Source: Escherichia coli
GTDB taxonomy: Bacteria > Pseudomonadota > Gammaproteobacteria > Enterobacterales > Enterobacteriaceae
DNA: 64,000 nt
Strand: one strand, 5' to 3'
Assembly (NCBI RefSeq): GCF_013315695.1
Contig: NZ_CP054353.1
Made by a program: the position numbers and the translations under genes. Below are positions 14,853 to 43,433 of this stretch, in pieces. Below the pieces are notes generated by a model. That model searched no databases and was not told the origin of the DNA. It saw only the letters and a program-made list of their open reading frames with translations. Each line of letters starts with the position of its first letter. The first letter of the stretch is position 1.

Positions 14853-15025
14853 AAAGTTCTTTTGCGCTGCATTGCTGGCGTAAATGTCAGCAATGCAGCA
14901 TTTCCTCACGATTCTTCTTTGACGATCGCACTTTTTGCTCGTTATGATGGCGTCGCTAGCCTCAGTAAATCCTTACTCCGGCGGTGCGCAACCCGTGCGC
15001 GTGAACCACTATCTGAATGCTCATC

Positions 15026-31766: not shown

Positions 31767-32459
31767 TTAATTGTGTCGCTTAAGGGTCTGTGACTGACTG
31801 ATTAAGACCTTTCCAAAGACCATAAACCGGTGTTCGTTTTCGCTGGTAATTCCCCATTCGCGGTAAATCTGATTATCAGAAATTACCAGCAGTTTATCAG
31901 GTATCATTTGCAGTCGTTTGACGTAAATTTTATCATCAAAACCAAATACATATATACCATCCCCATCAAACTGATTGATACTGATATCAACGAAGATGAG
32001 ATCTCCTGGCTCAATGGTTGGACACATACTGTCCCCACGAACGTTGATAACTTTAATGTGATTTGCTGGTCGTCCACCAAACATCGATACAGCATTATCA
32101 GTTCTGTATTCAATGGCATGAATCACATCAATGACATCACCGCCCTGGATAAGGCCATTTCCCGCACTGGCACTGACATCCAGCATTTCAATACGGAATA
32201 CATCCTTCACCTGCGTAACATCCTCACTAATACTGTTTTTACATACAGTATTACTTTTGAGGTCTGAGGTAAAGAGATCAGCAATATCAACACCTAAGCT
32301 CCTGGCAATATTACTCAGGGCTTGTTCAGTGAATTGTTTCTGCTTACCTGTTTCGAGGCGCGAGATATTCGCCGCATCCACTCCTATTGCTTCAGCGAGA
32401 TCGGCGATTTTCATGTTCTTCGCCTGGCGAAGTTGTCTGACTCGATTTCCTATGTTCAT
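31767..32459 (-). CDS. cI: CI-like phage repressor (HTH plus S24 LexA-like peptidase domain)
   Basis: 230-aa ORF with N-terminal HTH (IADLAEAIGVDAANISRLETGK) and C-terminal S24 motifs (GDSMCPTI ... KRL); divergent from cro. Confidence 0.85.
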   Translation of the reverse strand: MNIGNRVRQLRQAKNMKIADLAEAIGVDAANISRLETGKQKQFTEQALSNIARSLGVDIADLFTSDLKSNTVCKNSISEDVTQVKDVFRIEMLDVSASAGNGLIQGGDVIDVIHAIEYRTDNAVSMFGGRPANHIKVINVRGDSMCPTIEPGDLIFVDISINQFDGDGIYVFGFDDKIYVKRLQMIPDKLLVISDNQIYREWGITSENEHRFMVFGKVLISQSQTLKRHN

Positions 32460-32556: not shown

Positions 32557-32817
32557 ATGCAATCACCATTACGGAATGTGCGTAAGGCGCACGGATTTAC
32601 TTTGCAGCATGTTGCTGCGGGCGTTCAGGTCAATCCAGCGACGCTGAGTCGTATTGAAAGACTGGAACAAATTCCATCTATCGATCTTGCAGAACGTCTG
32701 GCCAATTTTTTTAAGGGTGAAATCAGCGAAATGCAGATTCTTTATCCGGCACGTTTTCAATCTAGCCAAAACCAGAATGGGTTTAAACCACAGGAACAGG
32801 AGGTAAGCCGTGGGTAA
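32557..32817 (+). CDS. cro: Cro-like HTH (XRE-family) regulator
   Basis: 86-aa ORF with HTH LQHVAAGVQVNPATLSRIE; first gene rightward of the switch. Confidence 0.75.
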   Translation: MQSPLRNVRKAHGFTLQHVAAGVQVNPATLSRIERLEQIPSIDLAERLANFFKGEISEMQILYPARFQSSQNQNGFKPQEQEVSRG

Positions 32818-33367
32818 GCATCATTGGAAAGTGGAAAAACAGCCTGAGTGGTACGTGAAAGCTGTCAGAAAAACTATCGCGGCGTTGCCGGGGGGTTACG
32901 CTGAAGCTGCTGAGTGGCTGGATGTAACAGAGAACGCATTATTCAACCGCCTTCGTGCAGATGGCGATCAGATTTTCCCGCTGGGATGGGCAATGGTTTT
33001 ACAGCGTGCGGCTGGCACTCACTACATTGCGGATGCTGTCGCACAGTCTGCTGGTGGGGTGTTCGTATCGCTTCCTGAAATTGAGGCAGTAGAGAACGCC
33101 GATATAAACCAGCGCCTGCTGGAAGTCATTGAACAGATCGGCAGTTATTCCAGACAGATTCGTTCAGCAATCGAAGACGGTGTAGTGGAACCGCATGAGA
33201 AGACAGCAATTAACGACGAACTGTATCTTTCAATTTCGAAGCTCCAGGAGCATGCAGCACTGGTCTACAAAATCTTCTGCGCTCCAGAAAAGAGTAACGC
33301 CCGCGAGTGTGCAGCTCCGGGCGTCGTGGCGTCGATTGCTTCTGGTTGTGGAGAAACTAACGCATGA
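32810..33367 (+). CDS. hypothetical regulator in the cII position (possibly YmfL-like)
   Basis: 185-aa ORF overlapping the cro stop and the next start. Confidence 0.4.
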   Translation: MGKHHWKVEKQPEWYVKAVRKTIAALPGGYAEAAEWLDVTENALFNRLRADGDQIFPLGWAMVLQRAAGTHYIADAVAQSAGGVFVSLPEIEAVENADINQRLLEVIEQIGSYSRQIRSAIEDGVVEPHEKTAINDELYLSISKLQEHAALVYKIFCAPEKSNARECAAPGVVASIASGCGETNA

Positions 33368-34509
33368 ATAGTTTAACGGCAAATAACCGTTTGTCGCAAC
33401 AGCTGGTGGTCAGCGTCGCTGAACACCTGTTGTTACGGCATGAATGCAGATTACCAAATCACCTGGCTGTAAGTAACCACAGAGAACTTTACCTGACTGT
33501 GGGGGGCGAGTTGTGCAGGAACTTAACCGCTGGTTTCGTGACGGAAGAGGGCTTTATGTCCATGTTATTCGTTGGGAGCCAGAAACACAGCGCGTTATCT
33601 ATCTTCGCAAAGACTACCCGCATGAGTGCTTTAGTCCTTTGTGGAAATTCAGGCGTGATTTTGTTGAGTGTGAAGGACCACCAGCATATTGATTCTGCAA
33701 TTCCGGGACGTTACACTGTTCAGGCACCTTATAAAGCGGGTGCCGGGATTGGCGTCCTGAAATTCGCACATGCGCATAACCGCGCTTCAGCGGTTTTTTT
33801 GCGCACGTTTCCTCACATCCAAATTATGGTGGGGCGTGCAGGGGCATCGAAAGATGCGCCGGGGTCATGTGCGACCGGTTACGCCAACCCTGTACGTCTC
33901 ACCACCTCTGTGATTGGCGTCCCATGTGGTGAGTTTTCAAAATTCGCACATGAGGATGTCACTATGGCAACCACCCCTACCCAAACTCACCCTAAAATTG
34001 ATGTTATCCATGGGAAGGCTGTTACCTCTTCTTTGGCCGTTGCCGAATATTTCTGCAAGCAGCACAAAAACGTTATTCAAAAAATCCAGACGCTTGAGTG
34101 CTCTGTTGAATTCACTGAGCTGAATTTTCAGCCCAGTGATTACACCGATTGCACAGGCCGCAAACTCCCTTGTTACCAAATCACCCGCGACGGTTTTGCG
34201 TTTCTTGCCATGGGCTTCACGGGGAAACGTGCTGCCCGGTTCAAAGAGGCATACATCAATGCCTTTAACCAGATGGAGAAACAGCTTTCAAATCCCTCTG
34301 TACTGAGCGACGTTGCACATAACGCCAGCGTTCTCTATTCCTACATTTCATCAATTCATCAGGTCTGGCTGCAGCAGCTTTATCCTATGTTGGCAAAAGC
34401 CGAATCTCCGCTGGCTGTTAGCTTGTATGACTATATTAATGATGCTTCGGCGCTGGCCTGCCTCATAAATTTGTCGCTGAATCCTTCAGAGGTAAGGGGG
34501 CGTAAATGA
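33364..34509 (+). CDS. Rha-family phage regulatory protein, copy 1 (variable N-terminal region plus Rha domain)
   Basis: C-terminal ITRDGFAFLAMGFTGKRAARFKEAYINAFNQME matches the Rha-domain signature as I recall it; possible internal start near 33965 (MATTPTQ...). Confidence 0.65.
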   Translation: MNSLTANNRLSQQLVVSVAEHLLLRHECRLPNHLAVSNHRELYLTVGGELCRNLTAGFVTEEGFMSMLFVGSQKHSALSIFAKTTRMSALVLCGNSGVILLSVKDHQHIDSAIPGRYTVQAPYKAGAGIGVLKFAHAHNRASAVFLRTFPHIQIMVGRAGASKDAPGSCATGYANPVRLTTSVIGVPCGEFSKFAHEDVTMATTPTQTHPKIDVIHGKAVTSSLAVAEYFCKQHKNVIQKIQTLECSVEFTELNFQPSDYTDCTGRKLPCYQITRDGFAFLAMGFTGKRAARFKEAYINAFNQMEKQLSNPSVLSDVAHNASVLYSYISSIHQVWLQQLYPMLAKAESPLAVSLYDYINDASALACLINLSLNPSEVRGRK

Positions 34510-35387
34510 TCCGGAATATTTTCAAACTGTTTACCAATCGCCACCAGCATATTGATTCTGCAATTCCGGGACGTTACACTGTTCAGGCACCTTATAAAGC
34601 GGGTGCCGGGATTGGCGTCCTGAAATTGTCAACGGCGATGTATGACGCGCCAGCGTCTTTTTTATCGTCCGCATTTGCTCACATCCAGATTATGGTGGGC
34701 TGGGCGGGGGCACCGAAAGGTGCGCCGGTCTCCGTTGACGCCGGTTACGCCAACCCCGTCCAGTTCACCACCAGTGAAATTGGCGTTTCCGGTGGTGGAA
34801 GTTTTTCACTGTCAACGGAGGCTGCCATCATGGCTACGATCCCAGCCCTCACTCAACCTGAAATCACCATTGACAACGGCCAGGCCGTTACCACTTCTTT
34901 GGCTGTTGCCAACTTCTTCTCCAAGCGTCACGACGATGTGCTGAAAAAGATCCGCACTCTGGATTGTTCCCCTGAGTTTTGTGCCCGCAATTTTGCGGAG
35001 ACATCGATTTCGGTAAATCAACCGAACGGTGGTACACGCAAGCTCCTTTGCTATCAAATCACACGAGACGGTTTTGCGTTTCTTGCTATGGGTTTCACGG
35101 GTAAACGTGCTGCCCGGTTCAAAGAGGCATACATCAATGCCTTTAACCAGATGGAAAAACTGCTTTCAAAGCCATCCACGCTGAGCGATGCCGCAGATAA
35201 CGCCAGCGTGCTTTACTCCCACCTGTCGGTAATCCACAAGGTCTGGCTGCAGCAGCTTTATCCCATGTTGGCAAAAGCCGAATCCCCGCTGGCTGTAAGT
35301 CTGTATGACCGCATCAACGACGCGGCGCTACTGGCCAGTCTCATAAATTTGTCGCTGAACCCTTCAGAGGTAAGGGGGCGTAAATGA
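34506..35387 (+). CDS. Rha-family phage regulatory protein, copy 2 (tandem paralogue)
   Basis: 293-aa ORF; same Rha C-terminal motif; N-terminus MIRNIFKLFTNRHQHIDSAIPGRY repeats a segment inside copy 1. Confidence 0.65.
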   Translation: MIRNIFKLFTNRHQHIDSAIPGRYTVQAPYKAGAGIGVLKLSTAMYDAPASFLSSAFAHIQIMVGWAGAPKGAPVSVDAGYANPVQFTTSEIGVSGGGSFSLSTEAAIMATIPALTQPEITIDNGQAVTTSLAVANFFSKRHDDVLKKIRTLDCSPEFCARNFAETSISVNQPNGGTRKLLCYQITRDGFAFLAMGFTGKRAARFKEAYINAFNQMEKLLSKPSTLSDAADNASVLYSHLSVIHKVWLQQLYPMLAKAESPLAVSLYDRINDAALLASLINLSLNPSEVRGRK

Positions 35388-35608
35388 TCCGGAATATTTT
35401 CAAACGGTTTACCAATCATACTTTCCGTTGTCCTCGTCCGGGTCAGTGGTACACCACGCCTGCAGGGCATGTTCTACGTGTTAGCCTGGTTGACCGTGAA
35501 TGTCAGAAGGTGATTTGTGAACCGCTGGGCCGTAATTACCGCGTCAGTATGCCGCTTATAGCCTTTCGCTCCGGAAAAAACATGAAGCATCTCGGAGGTG
35601 CTGCATGA
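35384..35608 (+). CDS. small protein sharing the repeat-derived N-terminus
   Basis: 74-aa ORF starting MIRNIFKRFTN, the same N-terminal motif as Rha copy 2. Confidence 0.35.
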   Translation: MIRNIFKRFTNHTFRCPRPGQWYTTPAGHVLRVSLVDRECQKVICEPLGRNYRVSMPLIAFRSGKNMKHLGGAA

Positions 35609-36423
35609 GTATGGAGTTGATGGTTAAAGCGATGAAAATTCGAGTGGGAAATCCATTGCGAAAACTGGTTCTGATTAAGCTGGCTGATAATGCCAGCGAT
35701 CAGGGTGAGTGCTGGCCCAGCTACCAGCATATTGCTGACCAGTGCGAGATTAGCAAACGTTCTGTGATGAATCATATTGCGGCCCTTTGTGAGTCCGGGC
35801 TGGTAAAAAAAGTCACCCGGAAAGGTGAAAAAGGTAACTCAAGTAATATCTATCTCCTTCATCTTGATGGTGCAGGAGATTCACTAGGGGGTAGTGCAAA
35901 TAATTCACTATCTGGTGCAGCAAATTCACCAGGTAGTGCAGGAGTTGCACCAGGGGGTAGTGCAGGAGATTCACCCAGAACCAGTCACTCTTTTGAACCA
36001 GTCAAAGAACCAGTCAATGAACCAATAGCTGTTGGTGCATCTGCTGATGAGTCTGTGCGAGTTCGTTCAAACCGACCGGAATACTCTCCGGAGTTTGAGC
36101 AGGCATGGCTGGCCTATCCAAAACGTGCTGGTGGCAATTCAAAATCTGCAGCCTTCAAAGCCTGGAAAGCCCGTTTGAATGAGGGGGTAAACCCCGAAAC
36201 CATGCTGGAAGGTGTGAAACGCTACGCGGGCTGGGTATCTGCGATGGGTAACAGCGGCACACAATTTGTGAAACAGGCTGTCACGTTCTTTGGCCCGGAT
36301 CGTCATTTCGAAGAATCCTGGGAAGTTCCTGCGGTATCTGCAGTCAGACGCGAGGACCCGTACTTCAAAGCCAGTTACGACAACGTGGACTACAGCCAGA
36401 TCCCGGAAGGATTCAGGGGGTGA
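35605..36423 (+). CDS. replication initiation protein (O-like, N-terminal HTH)
   Basis: 272-aa ORF in the O position; N-terminal HTH-like segment; internal DNA iterons at 35868-35976. Confidence 0.6.
   Translation: MSMELMVKAMKIRVGNPLRKLVLIKLADNASDQGECWPSYQHIADQCEISKRSVMNHIAALCESGLVKKVTRKGEKGNSSNIYLLHLDGAGDSLGGSANNSLSGAANSPGSAGVAPGGSAGDSPRTSHSFEPVKEPVNEPIAVGASADESVRVRSNRPEYSPEFEQAWLAYPKRAGGNSKSAAFKAWKARLNEGVNPETMLEGVKRYAGWVSAMGNSGTQFVKQAVTFFGPDRHFEESWEVPAVSAVRREDPYFKASYDNVDYSQIPEGFRG
35868..35976. repeat. iteron-like direct repeats (candidate replication origin) inside the O-like gene
   Basis: About five imperfect ~20-bp repeats of the form GGTAGTGCA(GGAG/AAAT)..TTCAC encoding a low-complexity G/S/A linker. 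Confidence 0.5.
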
Positions 36424-42691: not shown

Positions 42692-42767
42692 GGCCCTTTA
42701 GCTCAGTGGTGAGAGCGAGCGATTCATAATCGCCAGGTCGCTGGTTCAAATCCAGCAAGGGCCACCA
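42692..42767 (+). tRNA. tRNA with CAU anticodon (Ile2/Met-type; ileZ-like)
   Basis: Cloverleaf GGCCCTT-TA-GCTCAGTGGTGAGAGC..anticodon loop TTCATAA..GGTTCAAATCC..AAGGGCC-A-CCA. Confidence 0.85.
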
Positions 42768-42774
42768 TCACATA

Positions 42775-42851
42775 CCGCCATTAGCTCATCAGGATAGAGC
42801 GCCAGCCTTCGAAGCTGGTTGCGCGGGGTTCGAGTCCTCGATGGCGGTCCA
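42775..42851 (+). tRNA. tRNA-Arg (anticodon UCG; argN-like)
   Basis: Acceptor CCGCCAT/ATGGCGG, anticodon loop CTTCGAA, T-loop GGTTCGAGTCC, encoded CCA. Confidence 0.8.
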
Positions 42852-42864
42852 TTATCTGTACCCT

Positions 42865-42941
42865 GCGTTATTAGCTCAGCCGGACAGAGCAATTGCCTTC
42901 TAAGCAATCGGTCACTGGTTCGAATCCAGTACAACGCGCCA
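42865..42941 (+). tRNA. tRNA-Arg (anticodon UCU; argO/argU-like)
   Basis: GCGTTATTAGCTCAGCCGGACAGAGC..anticodon loop CTTCTAA..GGTTCGAATCC..CGCCA, close to host argU. Confidence 0.8.
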
Positions 42942-42954
42942 GACTTATTTTTCC

Positions 42955-42980
42955 CGGCTCGCTTTTGCGGGCTTTTTTTT
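42955..42980 (+). terminator. rho-independent terminator after the tRNA cluster
   Basis: gctcgc-tttt-gcgggc hairpin followed by eight T. Confidence 0.7.
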
Positions 42981-43433
42981 AAATGTCTCACAATTCAGAC
43001 GGTTGACAGTTGTCTGTTTTGCGGGGAGTTTGTTAAAAGAAACTGGCATGGTGAATCCCCCTGTGCGGAGGGGCAATCAGCAACTGGTGTTTTGTCACCG
43101 ACCCTTATCCTTTCTGTGCGGGTTCAGGTGCTGATACTGAACTCACCGGGAGGCACCCGGCATCATGTGCATGATGATACAGATACGCGGCTTTAGCCCC
43201 TCTCCGGAGGGGCTTTCTTGTGGGCAAAAAAAAGCCCGAGTGGGTTCGGGCAACAGCATGAGATATACATTTTTATAATCGAATGGATTTTAACCAGAAT
43301 TCATAAGGCTGCGCAACTGCGCGGTCTTTTTCGAATTGCGGGCTGTCGTCTCTCTTCTGCCATTGTCCTGTAACTTCCGGACTTCAGCCCGCTCCTTATT
43401 TTACTCACAATATTATCCCGGCCGGGAGGATTC

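What the first reader, a model, noticed from the sequence alone, without database searches (positions are those of the whole stretch)
33650..35410. Tandem, diverged duplication of an ~866-bp unit producing two Rha-family genes and a third truncated start
The motif caccagcatattgattctgcaattccgggacgttacactgttcaggcaccttataaagcgggtgccgggattggcgtcctgaaatt occurs at about 33675 and again at about 34541. The sequence ggcgtaaatgatccggaatattttcaaac marks unit ends at about 34499 and 35379. Each unit carries a Rha-domain C-terminus that is nearly identical at the end, but the 5' halves differ strongly (FAHAHNRASAVFLRTFPH versus LSTAMYDAPASFLSSAFAH). A third gene (35384-35608) re-uses the MIRNIFK.FTN start. 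This looks like diversification of a sensor or specificity region on a constant effector, and the array is prone to recombination.
Basis: seen in the sequence. Interest (0 to 1): 0.55.

Follow-up and report, generated by a model that had tools for sequence, protein, structure and literature searches.

The report
Tandem C4-RNA-controlled Rha gene cassettes

Summary
Two direct repeat units (33678-34540 and 34541-35418) lie between the cII-like and O-like genes of a lambdoid E. coli prophage. The identical array occurs in at least 7 independent complete genomes, so it is not an assembly artefact.

The strongly diverged "5' halves" are not protein. Each unit carries an IsrK-like terminated leader RNA (Rfam RF01394) and a C4 antisense RNA (RF01695). 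The true Rha genes start at 33964 and 34830.

Each C4 hairpin loop (b') is perfectly complementary to 10 nt at its own rha Shine-Dalgarno (b2) and to 8-9 nt in its own leader (b1). It has no match of 7 nt or more to the other cassette. A second contact (a'/a1/a2) is shared.

Across 107 unique related cassettes I found 37 b' classes that co-vary with b1 and b2. About 8% of C4-bearing viral contigs carry 2-3 cassettes in tandem.

This is the P1/P7 immI and Gifsy-1 isrK-anrP kind of switch, stacked twice. Repression and non-cross-reaction are inferred from sequence. Pairing of different classes within arrays is no more frequent than random assortment predicts. The "third start" is the intact downstream gene; the copy at the junction is its 11-codon remnant.

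The parts
33513..33692 (+). DUF4222-like small gene (59 aa). Its last 15 nt form the left edge of repeat unit 1.
   Evidence: phrog_1343 E=1.9e-36, full length. RefSeq annotates it as a DUF4222 domain protein in S88 and 23CRST038. Differences from relatives are synonymous in this frame (sequences).
33678..34540 (+). Repeat unit 1 = cassette 1 (863 nt).
33689..33717 (+). Candidate promoter of cassette 1: -35 TTGATT (33689-33694), 17-nt spacer, -10 TACACT (33712-33717), predicted start G33724.
   Evidence: Aligns position for position with the curated P1 promoter P1c4/P51b and with the region upstream of Gifsy-1 IsrK. The same hexamer pair is present in 54 of 96 unique leaders. It matches only 8 of 12 consensus positions and was not called by the scan tool.
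33724..33800 (+). IsrK-like leader RNA 1. Contains a1 (TTGGCGT, 33749-33755), b1 (TCGCACATG, 33764-33772) and an intrinsic terminator (33778-33795 plus T-run).
   Evidence: Rfam RF01394, 62.3 bits (GA 50), model 1-77. Terminator. Sites.
33822..33909 (+). C4 antisense RNA 1. b' loop 33863-33874 (GGUCAUGUGCGA); a' 33880-33887 (UACGCCAA). Mature form predicted at 33828-33906 by analogy with P1.
   Evidence: Rfam RF01695, 75.1 bits (GA 45). My model R1 gives 93.7 bits. Structure has 100% pairing and 14 of 27 compensatory pairs across 25 sequences. The 5' context AAUUAUGGUGGGGCGUG is identical to P1.
33914..33956 (+). Target region of cassette 1: a2 (TTGGCGT, 33914-33920), b2 (TCGCACATGA, 33944-33953) overlapping the Shine-Dalgarno GAGGA (33952-33956).
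   Evidence: 10-nt perfect complement to the C4-1 b' loop. No match of 7 nt or more to the C4-2 b' loop.
33964..34509 (+). rha1, 181 aa, starts MATTPTQ.
   Evidence: Pfam PF09669 residues 21-106, E=1.4e-32. TIGR02681 116 bits vs cut-off 45.95. phrog_821/995/518. Third-position bias. MAT(T/I/V)P start conserved.
34506..34540 (+). 11-codon remnant (MIRNIFKLFTN) of the downstream small gene, ending at the duplication junction TTTACCAATCG|CCACCAGCATATTGATT.
   Evidence: The identical junction is present in S88 and 23CRST038.
34541..35418 (+). Repeat unit 2 = cassette 2 (878 nt).
34552..34580 (+). Candidate promoter of cassette 2 (TTGATT, 17-nt spacer, TACACT), predicted start G34587.
   Evidence: 100% identical to the cassette 1 promoter segment.
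34587..34663 (+). IsrK-like leader RNA 2. a1 at 34612-34618, b1 (GTCAACGG) at 34628-34635, terminator at 34644-34657 plus T-run.
   Evidence: Rfam RF01394, 62.2 bits. Terminator. Sites.
34688..34775 (+). C4 antisense RNA 2. b' loop 34729-34740 (UCUCCGUUGACG); a' 34746-34753. Mature form predicted at 34694-34772.
   Evidence: Rfam RF01695, 81.4 bits. R1 gives 102.1 bits..
34780..34821 (+). Target region of cassette 2: a2 (34780-34786), b2 (GTCAACGGAG, 34811-34820) overlapping the Shine-Dalgarno GGAGG (34817-34821).
   Evidence: 10-nt perfect complement to the C4-2 b' loop. No match of 7 nt or more to the C4-1 loop.
34830..35387 (+). rha2, 185 aa, starts MATIPALTQ. 54% identical to Rha1 over the first 90 aligned columns and 87% over the rest.
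   Evidence: TIGR02681 85.5 bits. phrog_821 E=1.8e-111..
35384..35608 (+). Intact 74-aa small gene (MIRNIFKRFTN...). It is the source of the remnant at 34506. Its start overlaps the rha2 stop (ATGA) and its stop overlaps the O-like gene start.
   Evidence: phrog_1153 E=4.1e-45, 1-74 of 74. ORF coordinates.

Best explanation
The window holds two complete cassettes of the C4/IsrK antisense-RNA switch, joined head to tail.

Each cassette consists of:
- its own promoter
- a short terminated leader RNA (IsrK-like) that carries decoy sites a1 and b1
- a structured C4 antisense RNA with single-stranded elements a' and b'
- target sites a2 and b2, with b2 lying on the ribosome-binding site
- a Rha-family regulator gene

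By analogy with P1/P7 c4-icd-ant and Gifsy-1 isrK-orf45-anrP, C4 is cut out of the read-through transcript. It pairs with a2/b2 and blocks translation of rha. The short leader RNA competes for C4 and relieves the block.

The two cassettes share a' and a, but their b'/b1/b2 triads are completely different and internally matched. Each C4 should therefore silence only its own rha, as in P1/P7 heteroimmunity.

The array most likely arose once, by illegitimate recombination that joined the first 11 codons of the downstream small gene to a point 11 nt upstream of a cassette's -35 hexamer. Homologous exchange of cassette alleles followed.

Shown by sequence: the anatomy, the RNA family membership, the covariation and the complementarity. 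Inferred: transcription from the internal promoters, processing, repression, lack of cross-reaction, and the antirepressor or regulator role of Rha.
For: - Rfam hits above gathering score for isrK and C4 in both units.
- C4 structure: 100% of 675 cells paired and 14 of 27 pairs with compensatory changes. Slid controls give 31-50%.
- Intrinsic terminators lie at the ends of both leaders.
- Loop-restricted complementarity: own b2 10 nt, own b1 8-9 nt, cross 0; a sites shared.
- General rule across 107 unique cassettes and 37 b' classes: own b2 of 8 nt or more in 98/107 versus 17/3852 for foreign loops; own b1 in 72/107 versus 14/3852.
- Flat codon-position differences in the RNA part versus third-position excess in rha.
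- Variable frame between the C4 AUG and the rha ATG in relatives.
- The promoter aligns with the curated P1 P1c4 promoter and with Gifsy-1.
- Gifsy-1 has isrK (79 bits), then C4 (69 bits), then anrP. In that system trans IsrK activates anrP translation 139-fold, and compensatory mutants G28A/C162U and G31A/C159U (an a1-a' type helix) were tested (PMC4825925).
- IsrK and STnc1160 are highly transcribed in Gifsy-1 lysogens (PMC7067206).
- P1 and P7 differ by matched 2+2-nt changes in a and b.
- Each cassette type also exists as a single cassette elsewhere: O104:H4 for class 1 and L009/L084 for class 2.
- The identical junction occurs on at least 3 different immunity backbones and with 2 different partner cassettes.
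Against: - There are no expression or processing data for this prophage.
- The internal promoter matches only 8 of 12 consensus positions, and the scan tool called none.
- The a'/a contact is identical in both cassettes, so some cross-talk cannot be excluded.
- In most close relatives the C4 AUG is in frame with rha with no stop (54 of 71). In Gifsy-1 an ORF starting at that AUG (orf45) matters for expression, so the region may be translated as well as structured.
- Gifsy-1 AnrP is not homologous to these Rha proteins (E=13), so the function of the cargo is not transferred from that system.
- Different-class pairing in arrays is no more frequent than random assortment predicts: 1 same-class pair observed, 1.3 expected. 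The tandem state need not be adaptive.
Confidence: 0.78

Rival explanations
1. Same anatomy, but the cassettes are not independent. The shared a'/a contact, transcriptional read-through from cassette 1 or from the early right operon, and translation re-initiating at the remnant ATG (34506) would couple cassette 2 to cassette 1. The frame from that ATG is open and in phase through the cassette-2 RNAs into rha2. The pair would then act as one hierarchical unit.
For: The a' and a sites are identical. ORF 34506-35387 is open for 293 codons and in frame with rha2. ATGA overlaps link ymfL, rha1, the remnant, rha2, orf74 and the O-like gene.
Against: In S88 the equivalent frame lacks a start, and RefSeq flags the second gene as N-terminally incomplete, so coupling through this frame is not conserved. 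Each cassette keeps its own promoter segment, terminator and matched b triad. In P1 and P7 a 2+2-nt difference accompanies heteroimmunity (heteroimmunity itself is from my knowledge of Citron and Schuster 1990).
Confidence: 0.12
2. One cassette is a functionally redundant or decaying passenger. On this view the array is a neutral by-product of recombination between heteroallelic lambdoid phages, on its way to collapse.
For: This junction is rare: 12 of 5,426 genomes. All 50,697 phage records show a single cassette at this locus. Mixed-class pairing equals the random expectation. Truncated mini-cassettes exist in other arrays, with spacings of 360-387 nt.
Against: Both window cassettes are fully intact: ORFs of 181 and 185 aa above the family cut-off, C4 fully paired, matched b1/b2, and terminators. 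The same junction persists on at least 3 backbones and with 2 partner cassettes. Arrays of 2-3 cassettes recur with at least 2 independent junction types and 18 array types.
Confidence: 0.08
3. One reading: two long Rha proteins (381 and 293 aa, as RefSeq annotates them) whose variable N-terminal regions are protein sensor or specificity domains on a constant effector.
For: The long frames are open. PGAP annotates them as Rha family proteins. PHROG profiles such as phrog_821 and phrog_3960 match the translated upstream part.
Against: The region is covered by two Rfam RNA families above threshold with full base-pair covariation. It shows no codon-position bias. The frame is shifted or stopped in relatives while the MAT(T/I/V)P start is conserved. 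The part overlapping 33513-33692 is coding in another frame. PGAP calls differ for near-identical DNA: 381 aa, 280 aa, or pseudogene. The PHROG matches reflect the same read-through gene calls in other phages.
Confidence: 0.02

Closest known systems
immI operon of phages P1 and P7 (c4 antisense RNA, icd, ant1/ant2)
   Same: - Same Rfam family (RF01695) and the same order: promoter, a1, b1, C4, a2, b2 (at the ribosome-binding site), cargo.
- The promoter and the 5' edge of C4 align almost base for base.
- Specificity differences are carried by matched changes in C4 and in both target copies.
   Different: - P1 has a single cassette, a C1 operator on the promoter, and an icd ORF between b2 and ant; its cargo is Ant1/Ant2.
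- Here b2 directly precedes a Rha-family gene, no icd is present, and no repressor operator was identified.
- The leader ends in an intrinsic terminator (IsrK type).
- P1 and P7 differ by 2 nt in a plus 2 nt in b. The window cassettes share a and differ throughout b.
- Two cassettes are stacked.
Gifsy-1 isrK-orf45(STnc1160)-anrP locus of Salmonella (Hershko-Shalev et al. 2016, PMC4825925)
   Same: isrK (RF01394), then C4 (RF01695), then a regulator gene, with a terminated short leader that also reads through. This is the only relative with direct experiments on the leader RNA acting in trans.
   Different: - Gifsy-1 has a single cassette, located downstream of Q rather than between the cII-like and O-like genes.
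- Its cargo AnrP is not homologous to Rha.
- orf45 ends with a stop before anrP, whereas here the equivalent frame runs into rha.
- The paper does not link STnc1160/orf45 to P1 C4.
Multi-copy C4-like sRNAs of Acinetobacter baumannii (PMC5320573)
   Same: Several C4-family RNAs in one genome, with variable single-stranded elements proposed to set target specificity, and RNase P-type processing at a GGW motif.
   Different: As that paper describes them, they are a family of similar sRNAs in many copies in the genome with variation in a'. They are not described as head-to-tail cassettes that each have their own leader, matched b1/b2 and cargo gene.
P4 CI RNA with seqA/seqC, and N15 CA RNA controlling antirepressor genes
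   Same: A processed small RNA from the leader of an operon pairs with repeated target sequences upstream and downstream of itself to shut off downstream genes. For P4 this is cited in PMC4825925; for N15 it is from my own knowledge.
   Different: These are different RNA families. They act mainly through transcription termination. They were not tested here.

Membership tests
C4 antisense RNA (Rfam RF01695) | Covariance-model score at or above the gathering threshold (45 bits) | tested here: met
   75.1 and 81.4 bits, full-length model matches
C4 antisense RNA (Rfam RF01695) | Long closing helix enclosing two hairpins, supported by covariation | tested here: met
   27 pairs, 100% of 675 cells paired, 14 pairs with double changes; slid controls 31-50%
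C4 antisense RNA (Rfam RF01695) | a' and b' complementary to a2/b2 downstream, with b2 at the ribosome-binding site, and to a1/b1 upstream | tested here: met
   for the window; for 107 cassettes; P1 reference coordinates
C4 antisense RNA (Rfam RF01695) | Processed from a longer transcript by RNase P to about 77 nt and acts as a repressor in trans | not testable with these tools
   Only the sequence context is available: AUUAU|GGUGGGG at the 5' edge, identical to P1, and a 3' CACC
IsrK RNA (Rfam RF01394) | Score at or above gathering threshold (50 bits) and a terminal intrinsic terminator | tested here: met
   62.3 and 62.2 bits; terminators at 33778-33795 and 34644-34657 with T-runs
IsrK RNA (Rfam RF01394) | Dual role: short RNA acting in trans on its own read-through mRNA; Hfq binding | not testable with these tools
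   Shown only for Gifsy-1 (PMC4825925)
c4-a1b1 motif (Rfam RF03163) | Score at or above gathering threshold (46.7 bits) | tested here: not met
   21.6 bits at 33711-33763 and 34574-34626. The same stretch is better explained by the overlapping isrK model. Gifsy-1 scores 48.1.
P1-type immI operon | icd-like ORF between b2 and the antirepressor gene, and Ant1/Ant2 cargo | tested here: not met
   b2 is followed within about 10 nt by the rha start. The cargo is PF09669 Rha.
P1-type immI operon | Promoter under control of the primary repressor (C1 operator Oc4) | not tested
   No operator search was done. The prophage repressor here is an unrelated XRE/CI type.
Rha family (Pfam PF09669 / NCBIfam TIGR02681) | Domain match above the curated cut-off | tested here: met
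   Rha1: PF09669 E=1.4e-32. TIGR02681: 116.1 and 85.5 bits vs cut-off 45.95.
Rha family (Pfam PF09669 / NCBIfam TIGR02681) | Antirepressor or growth-inhibitory activity (phi80 Rha, P22 orf201) | not testable with these tools
   Literature statement only (PMC4936722). No solved structure by sequence.

The most novel reading that the evidence does not exclude
Enterobacterial lambdoid phages may carry a hypervariable, purely RNA-encoded immunity/anti-immunity barcode. It would consist of the b'/b1/b2 triad (at least 37 classes here) plus a' variants, and it is stacked in arrays of 2-3 cassettes.

A resident array would silence the Rha-type regulators of every incoming phage that shares any of its classes. 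Through translational coupling and polarity it might also silence the replication genes downstream. An incoming phage with an array would escape unless the resident matches all of its classes.

Arrays would then be units of selection in phage-phage conflict, and the constant leader segment would act as the recombination handle for swapping specificities.
Probability: 0.25. Interest if true: 0.7.

Novelty: new variant of a known kind. Interest (0 to 1): 0.42.

Why it matters
1. Annotation. RefSeq/PGAP and PHROG families read through the IsrK and C4 RNAs and report 280-381-aa "Rha" proteins or pseudogenes. Two regulatory RNAs per cassette therefore go unannotated in thousands of E. coli prophages.

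2. It links two literatures. Gifsy-1 orf45/STnc1160 is a C4 homologue, so the P1 immI model and the IsrK model describe the same switch.

3. It provides a natural set of dozens of apparently non-cross-reacting antisense/target/decoy triads on a constant scaffold. These occasionally occur stacked 2-3 deep, and their specificity is directly testable with reporters. They could explain cross-immunity patterns among co-resident lambdoid and Stx prophages.

Tried and rejected
- Whole-molecule RNAduplex between C4 and its flanks simply unfolded C4 and was uninformative. I replaced it with loop-restricted complementarity.
- My first structure string for C4 was one column out of register. The slide control exposed this and I corrected it.
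- A strict regex anchor (CCGGTTNNGCCAACCC) missed C4 copies with variant a' and made arrays look rarer than they are. The covariance model and nhmmer corrected this.
- The genome-contig scan with ATGATCCG-N(5-35)-ATTGATTCTGC returned almost only chance matches in unrelated phyla and was discarded.
- The second junction probe in E. coli genomes is inflated by two-piece joins about 520 nt apart. Only two contiguous hits were verified, so no frequency is claimed from it.
- I expected Gifsy-1 AnrP to be a Rha homologue. It is not.
- One literature query (immI / heteroimmune) was swamped by unrelated words.
- The P1 genome paper was not held.
- Assembly artefact is rejected.
- Active avoidance of same-class neighbours is rejected as unsupported.
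Full report
**1. Observation**

- The 86-nt motif occurs exactly at 33679-33764 and 34542-34627. The 29-nt motif occurs at 34499-34527 and 35377-35405.
- The repeat finder reports three collinear direct-repeat blocks with spacings of 863, 866 and 878 nt. The pairwise alignment gives 87% mean identity.
- I place the units at 33678-34540 and 34541-35418.
- Identity is strongly mosaic: 100% over the first 86 nt, 56-75% over the next ~200 nt, 68% over the first 85 Rha codons, 85% over the rest, and near identity at the end.
- The array is not an assembly artefact. The 2.4-kb region is 100% identical in six complete E. coli genomes. A 200-nt probe spanning the unit junction is contiguous in 12 of 5,426 complete genomes.
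- Single-cassette relatives are common, for example O104:H4. Every match among 50,697 phage records is single.

**2. What the units contain**

The context is the early right operon of a lambdoid prophage: cI-like repressor (31767-32459, minus strand), cro-like gene, cII/YmfL-like gene (32810-33367), then the array, then a 74-aa gene and an O-like replication gene.

A scan of the whole window against Rfam at gathering thresholds finds two RNAs in each unit:
- an isrK RNA at 33724-33800 and 34587-34663 (62 bits, GA 50)
- a C4 antisense RNA at 33822-33909 and 34688-34775 (75 and 81 bits, GA 45)

Each isrK match ends in an intrinsic terminator.

The real Rha genes begin at 33964 (MATTPTQ, 181 aa) and 34830 (MATIPALTQ, 185 aa). 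Pfam PF09669 covers residues 21-106 of Rha1. Both proteins exceed the curated NCBIfam TIGR02681 cut-off.

**3. RNA, not protein**

Three tests separate the two readings.
- *Codon position.* Between the two copies, differences in 33764-33963 fall 23/20/24 on codon positions 1/2/3. In the Rha CDS they fall 22/17/42 and 11/6/27.
- *Base-pair covariation.* On 25 distinct C4 sequences from related loci, the Rfam structure is 100% paired in 675 cells. 14 of 27 pairs show changes on both sides. Structures slid by 1-3 columns give 31-50% pairing (one search was my mis-registered first attempt).
- *Frame conservation.* Among relatives the distance from the invariant AUG at the C4 5' edge to the rha start is usually 138 nt (in frame). 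It is 137 nt in several cassettes, where the upstream frame is open for only 8-17 codons. More distant cassettes have a short ORF that stops after 33-40 codons. The MAT(T/I/V)P start is conserved throughout.

The part of the 381-aa frame that overlaps 33513-33692 is coding in a different frame (a DUF4222-like gene: phrog_1343; synonymous differences visible).

PGAP nevertheless annotates 381- and 293-aa "Rha" proteins. It annotates a 280-aa version plus a pseudogene "missing N-terminus" in S88 for near-identical DNA. PHROG profiles contain the same read-through.

**4. Specificity**

The C4 hairpin-2 loop (b') of cassette 1 (GGUCAUGUGCGA, 33863-33874) is perfectly complementary to two sites:
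- TCGCACATGA at 33944-33953, which overlaps the Shine-Dalgarno GAGGA
- TCGCACATG at 33764-33772 in its own leader

The cassette 2 loop (UCUCCGUUGACG) matches GTCAACGGAG at 34811-34820, overlapping GGAGG, and GTCAACGG at 34628-34635.

Neither loop has a complement of 7 nt or more in the other cassette. The junction element a' (UACGCCAA) and its sites (TTGGCGT at 33749, 33914, 34612 and 34780) are identical in both.

This is a general rule. I pooled C4 genes from IMG/VR contigs, E. coli loci and Gifsy-1, giving 145 genes, 107 unique cassettes and 37 b' classes. The own loop pairs 8 nt or more with b2 in 98 of 107 cassettes, against 17 of 3,852 foreign combinations. It pairs with b1 in 72 of 107, against 14 of 3,852. 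Nine a' variants exist, with matching a1/a2 in the one inspected example, the first cassette of L034.

**5. Relation to studied systems**

*P1 and P7.* The curated P1 record gives promoter P1c4, a1, b1, c4 (77 nt), a2, b2, icd and ant1/2 in the same order. The window's ATATTGATT-17-TACACT plus 6 nt aligns with P1's ATATTGACC-17-TATAGT. The C4 5' edge AAUUAUGGUGGGGCGUG is identical. P1 and P7 differ by 2 nt in each of a1/a2/a' and 2 nt in each of b1/b2/b'.

*Gifsy-1.* It carries isrK (79 bits), then C4 (69 bits), then STM2616/AnrP. The C4 hit lies in what Hershko-Shalev et al. called orf45/STnc1160. Their first orf45 AUG (A107) is the invariant AUG at the C4 edge. They showed the following (PMC4825925):
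- The isrK promoter drives anrP transcription, but the read-through mRNA is translationally silent.
- IsrK supplied in trans activates anrP translation 139-fold.
- Compensatory mutants confirm a helix between the middle of IsrK and the 3' part of orf45. By position, I read that helix as an a1-a' pairing.

IsrK and STnc1160 are highly transcribed in Gifsy-1 lysogens (PMC7067206).

*Earlier motif work.* Weinberg et al. described the C4 and a1b1 motifs as widespread, but not arrays or classes.

*Caveat on the cargo.* AnrP and the window's Rha proteins are not homologous. The RNA switch is conserved while the cargo is swapped. A regulator or antirepressor role for Rha rests only on family annotation and older phi80/P22 genetics.

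**6. Origin and spread of the array**

The window, S88 and 23CRST038 share the junction TTTACCAATCG|CCACCAGCATATTGATT. This is the first 11 codons of the downstream 74-aa gene fused 11 nt upstream of the -35 hexamer.

S88 pairs class UUUCCGUAUGCG with class GGUCAUGUGCGA. 23CRST038 and strain 582 have different immunity genes and flanks. That points to one founding event followed by homologous exchange.

The IMG/VR contig L110 has a different junction (ATGATCCGCTACC|TGAATATTGATT), so it arose independently.

With a covariance model built here, 7 of 83 C4-bearing contigs from an anchor-selected, array-blind sample carry 2-3 C4 genes. A junction-selected sample adds many more, including triples. 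In all there are 27 arrays of 18 types. Cargo is often a 120-aa short Rha (RefSeq "ash family") plus a 183-187-aa Rha. Some mini-cassettes are only 360-387 nt apart.

Only one array has the same class twice. Random assortment predicts 1.3 same-class neighbour pairs of 21, so different-class stacking is not evidence of selection.

**7. Mechanism, and what is inferred**

*Shown by sequence:* two intact cassettes, RNA family membership, structure, matched and mutually exclusive b triads, shared a sites, terminators, and 4-nt ATGA overlaps chaining ymfL, rha1, the remnant, rha2, orf74 and the O-like gene.

*Inferred:* each cassette is transcribed from its own promoter. Most transcripts stop at the leader terminator. 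Read-through yields C4, which blocks its own rha ribosome-binding site. The short leader titrates C4. The two switches do not cross-react.

Possible polarity on the replication genes, and any benefit of carrying two classes, are speculation.

**8. Verdict**

This is a real feature of a known kind in an arrangement I did not find described. Novelty is moderate. The practical value lies in correcting a widespread annotation error and in the catalogue of antisense triads that appear, by sequence, not to cross-react.

Noticed in passing
window 33364-34509 and 34506-35387; L123 3227-4932: RefSeq/PGAP gene calls read through the IsrK and C4 RNAs and are inconsistent for near-identical DNA: 381 aa, 280 aa, 293 aa, or pseudogene "missing N-terminus". 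PHROG profiles (phrog_821, 995, 3960, 6928) incorporate the translated RNA region.
   Followed up: yes
L125 (Gifsy-1, NC_010392) 34131-34214, minus strand: The orf45/STnc1160 region of the Gifsy-1 isrK locus is a C4 antisense RNA homologue (69 bits). The first orf45 AUG (A107) coincides with the invariant AUG at the C4 5' edge and RNase P site. The 2016 paper compares the locus to P4 CI RNA but not to P1 C4.
   Followed up: partly
L125 33513-34076 (minus strand) versus window 33964-34509: The RNA switch is conserved but its protein cargo is not. AnrP and Rha show no detectable similarity (BLASTP E=13). Within E. coli relatives one b' class is found with 64-, 77-, 120- and 181-aa cargo genes.
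   Followed up: partly
L160 5203-6602; L146 6795-7903; L090 1195-2052; L150 1625-2078: There are triple C4 arrays, and mini-cassettes only 360-387 nt apart whose cargo ORF is truncated or runs on into the next cassette.
   Followed up: partly
L034 7340-7600: A cassette with an altered a element: a' CUGCGAA with a1 TCGCAG and a2 TTCGCAG. So a-site classes exist too. Nine a' variants were seen among 107 cassettes.
   Followed up: partly
window 34506-35387: The remnant start codon at the junction overlaps the rha1 stop (ATGA). Its frame stays open, in phase, through IsrK-2 and C4-2 into rha2. Ribosomes re-initiating there could melt the cassette-2 RNAs. This is not conserved in S88.
   Followed up: no
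window 35870-35974: Three imperfect direct repeats of about 39 nt (start-to-start spacing 24 and 42 nt; 62-82% identity to the reference copy) lie inside the O-like replication gene. They look like origin iterons.
   Followed up: no
window 42692-43281: Three tRNA genes, then STnc100 sRNA (131.7 bits), then AsxR anti-stx2 sRNA on the minus strand (63 bits, exactly at threshold). This layout is typical of the Q-proximal region of Stx-like lambdoid phages.
   Followed up: no
window 14941-15021: Peptidase-S11 RNA motif (RF03039, 72.8 bits), far from the finding.
   Followed up: no
window 33513-33692 and 35384-35608: The small genes flanking the array are weakly related to each other: the 59-aa protein hits phrog_1153, the family of the 74-aa protein, at E=0.008. 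The cassette may sit between diverged paralogues.
   Followed up: no
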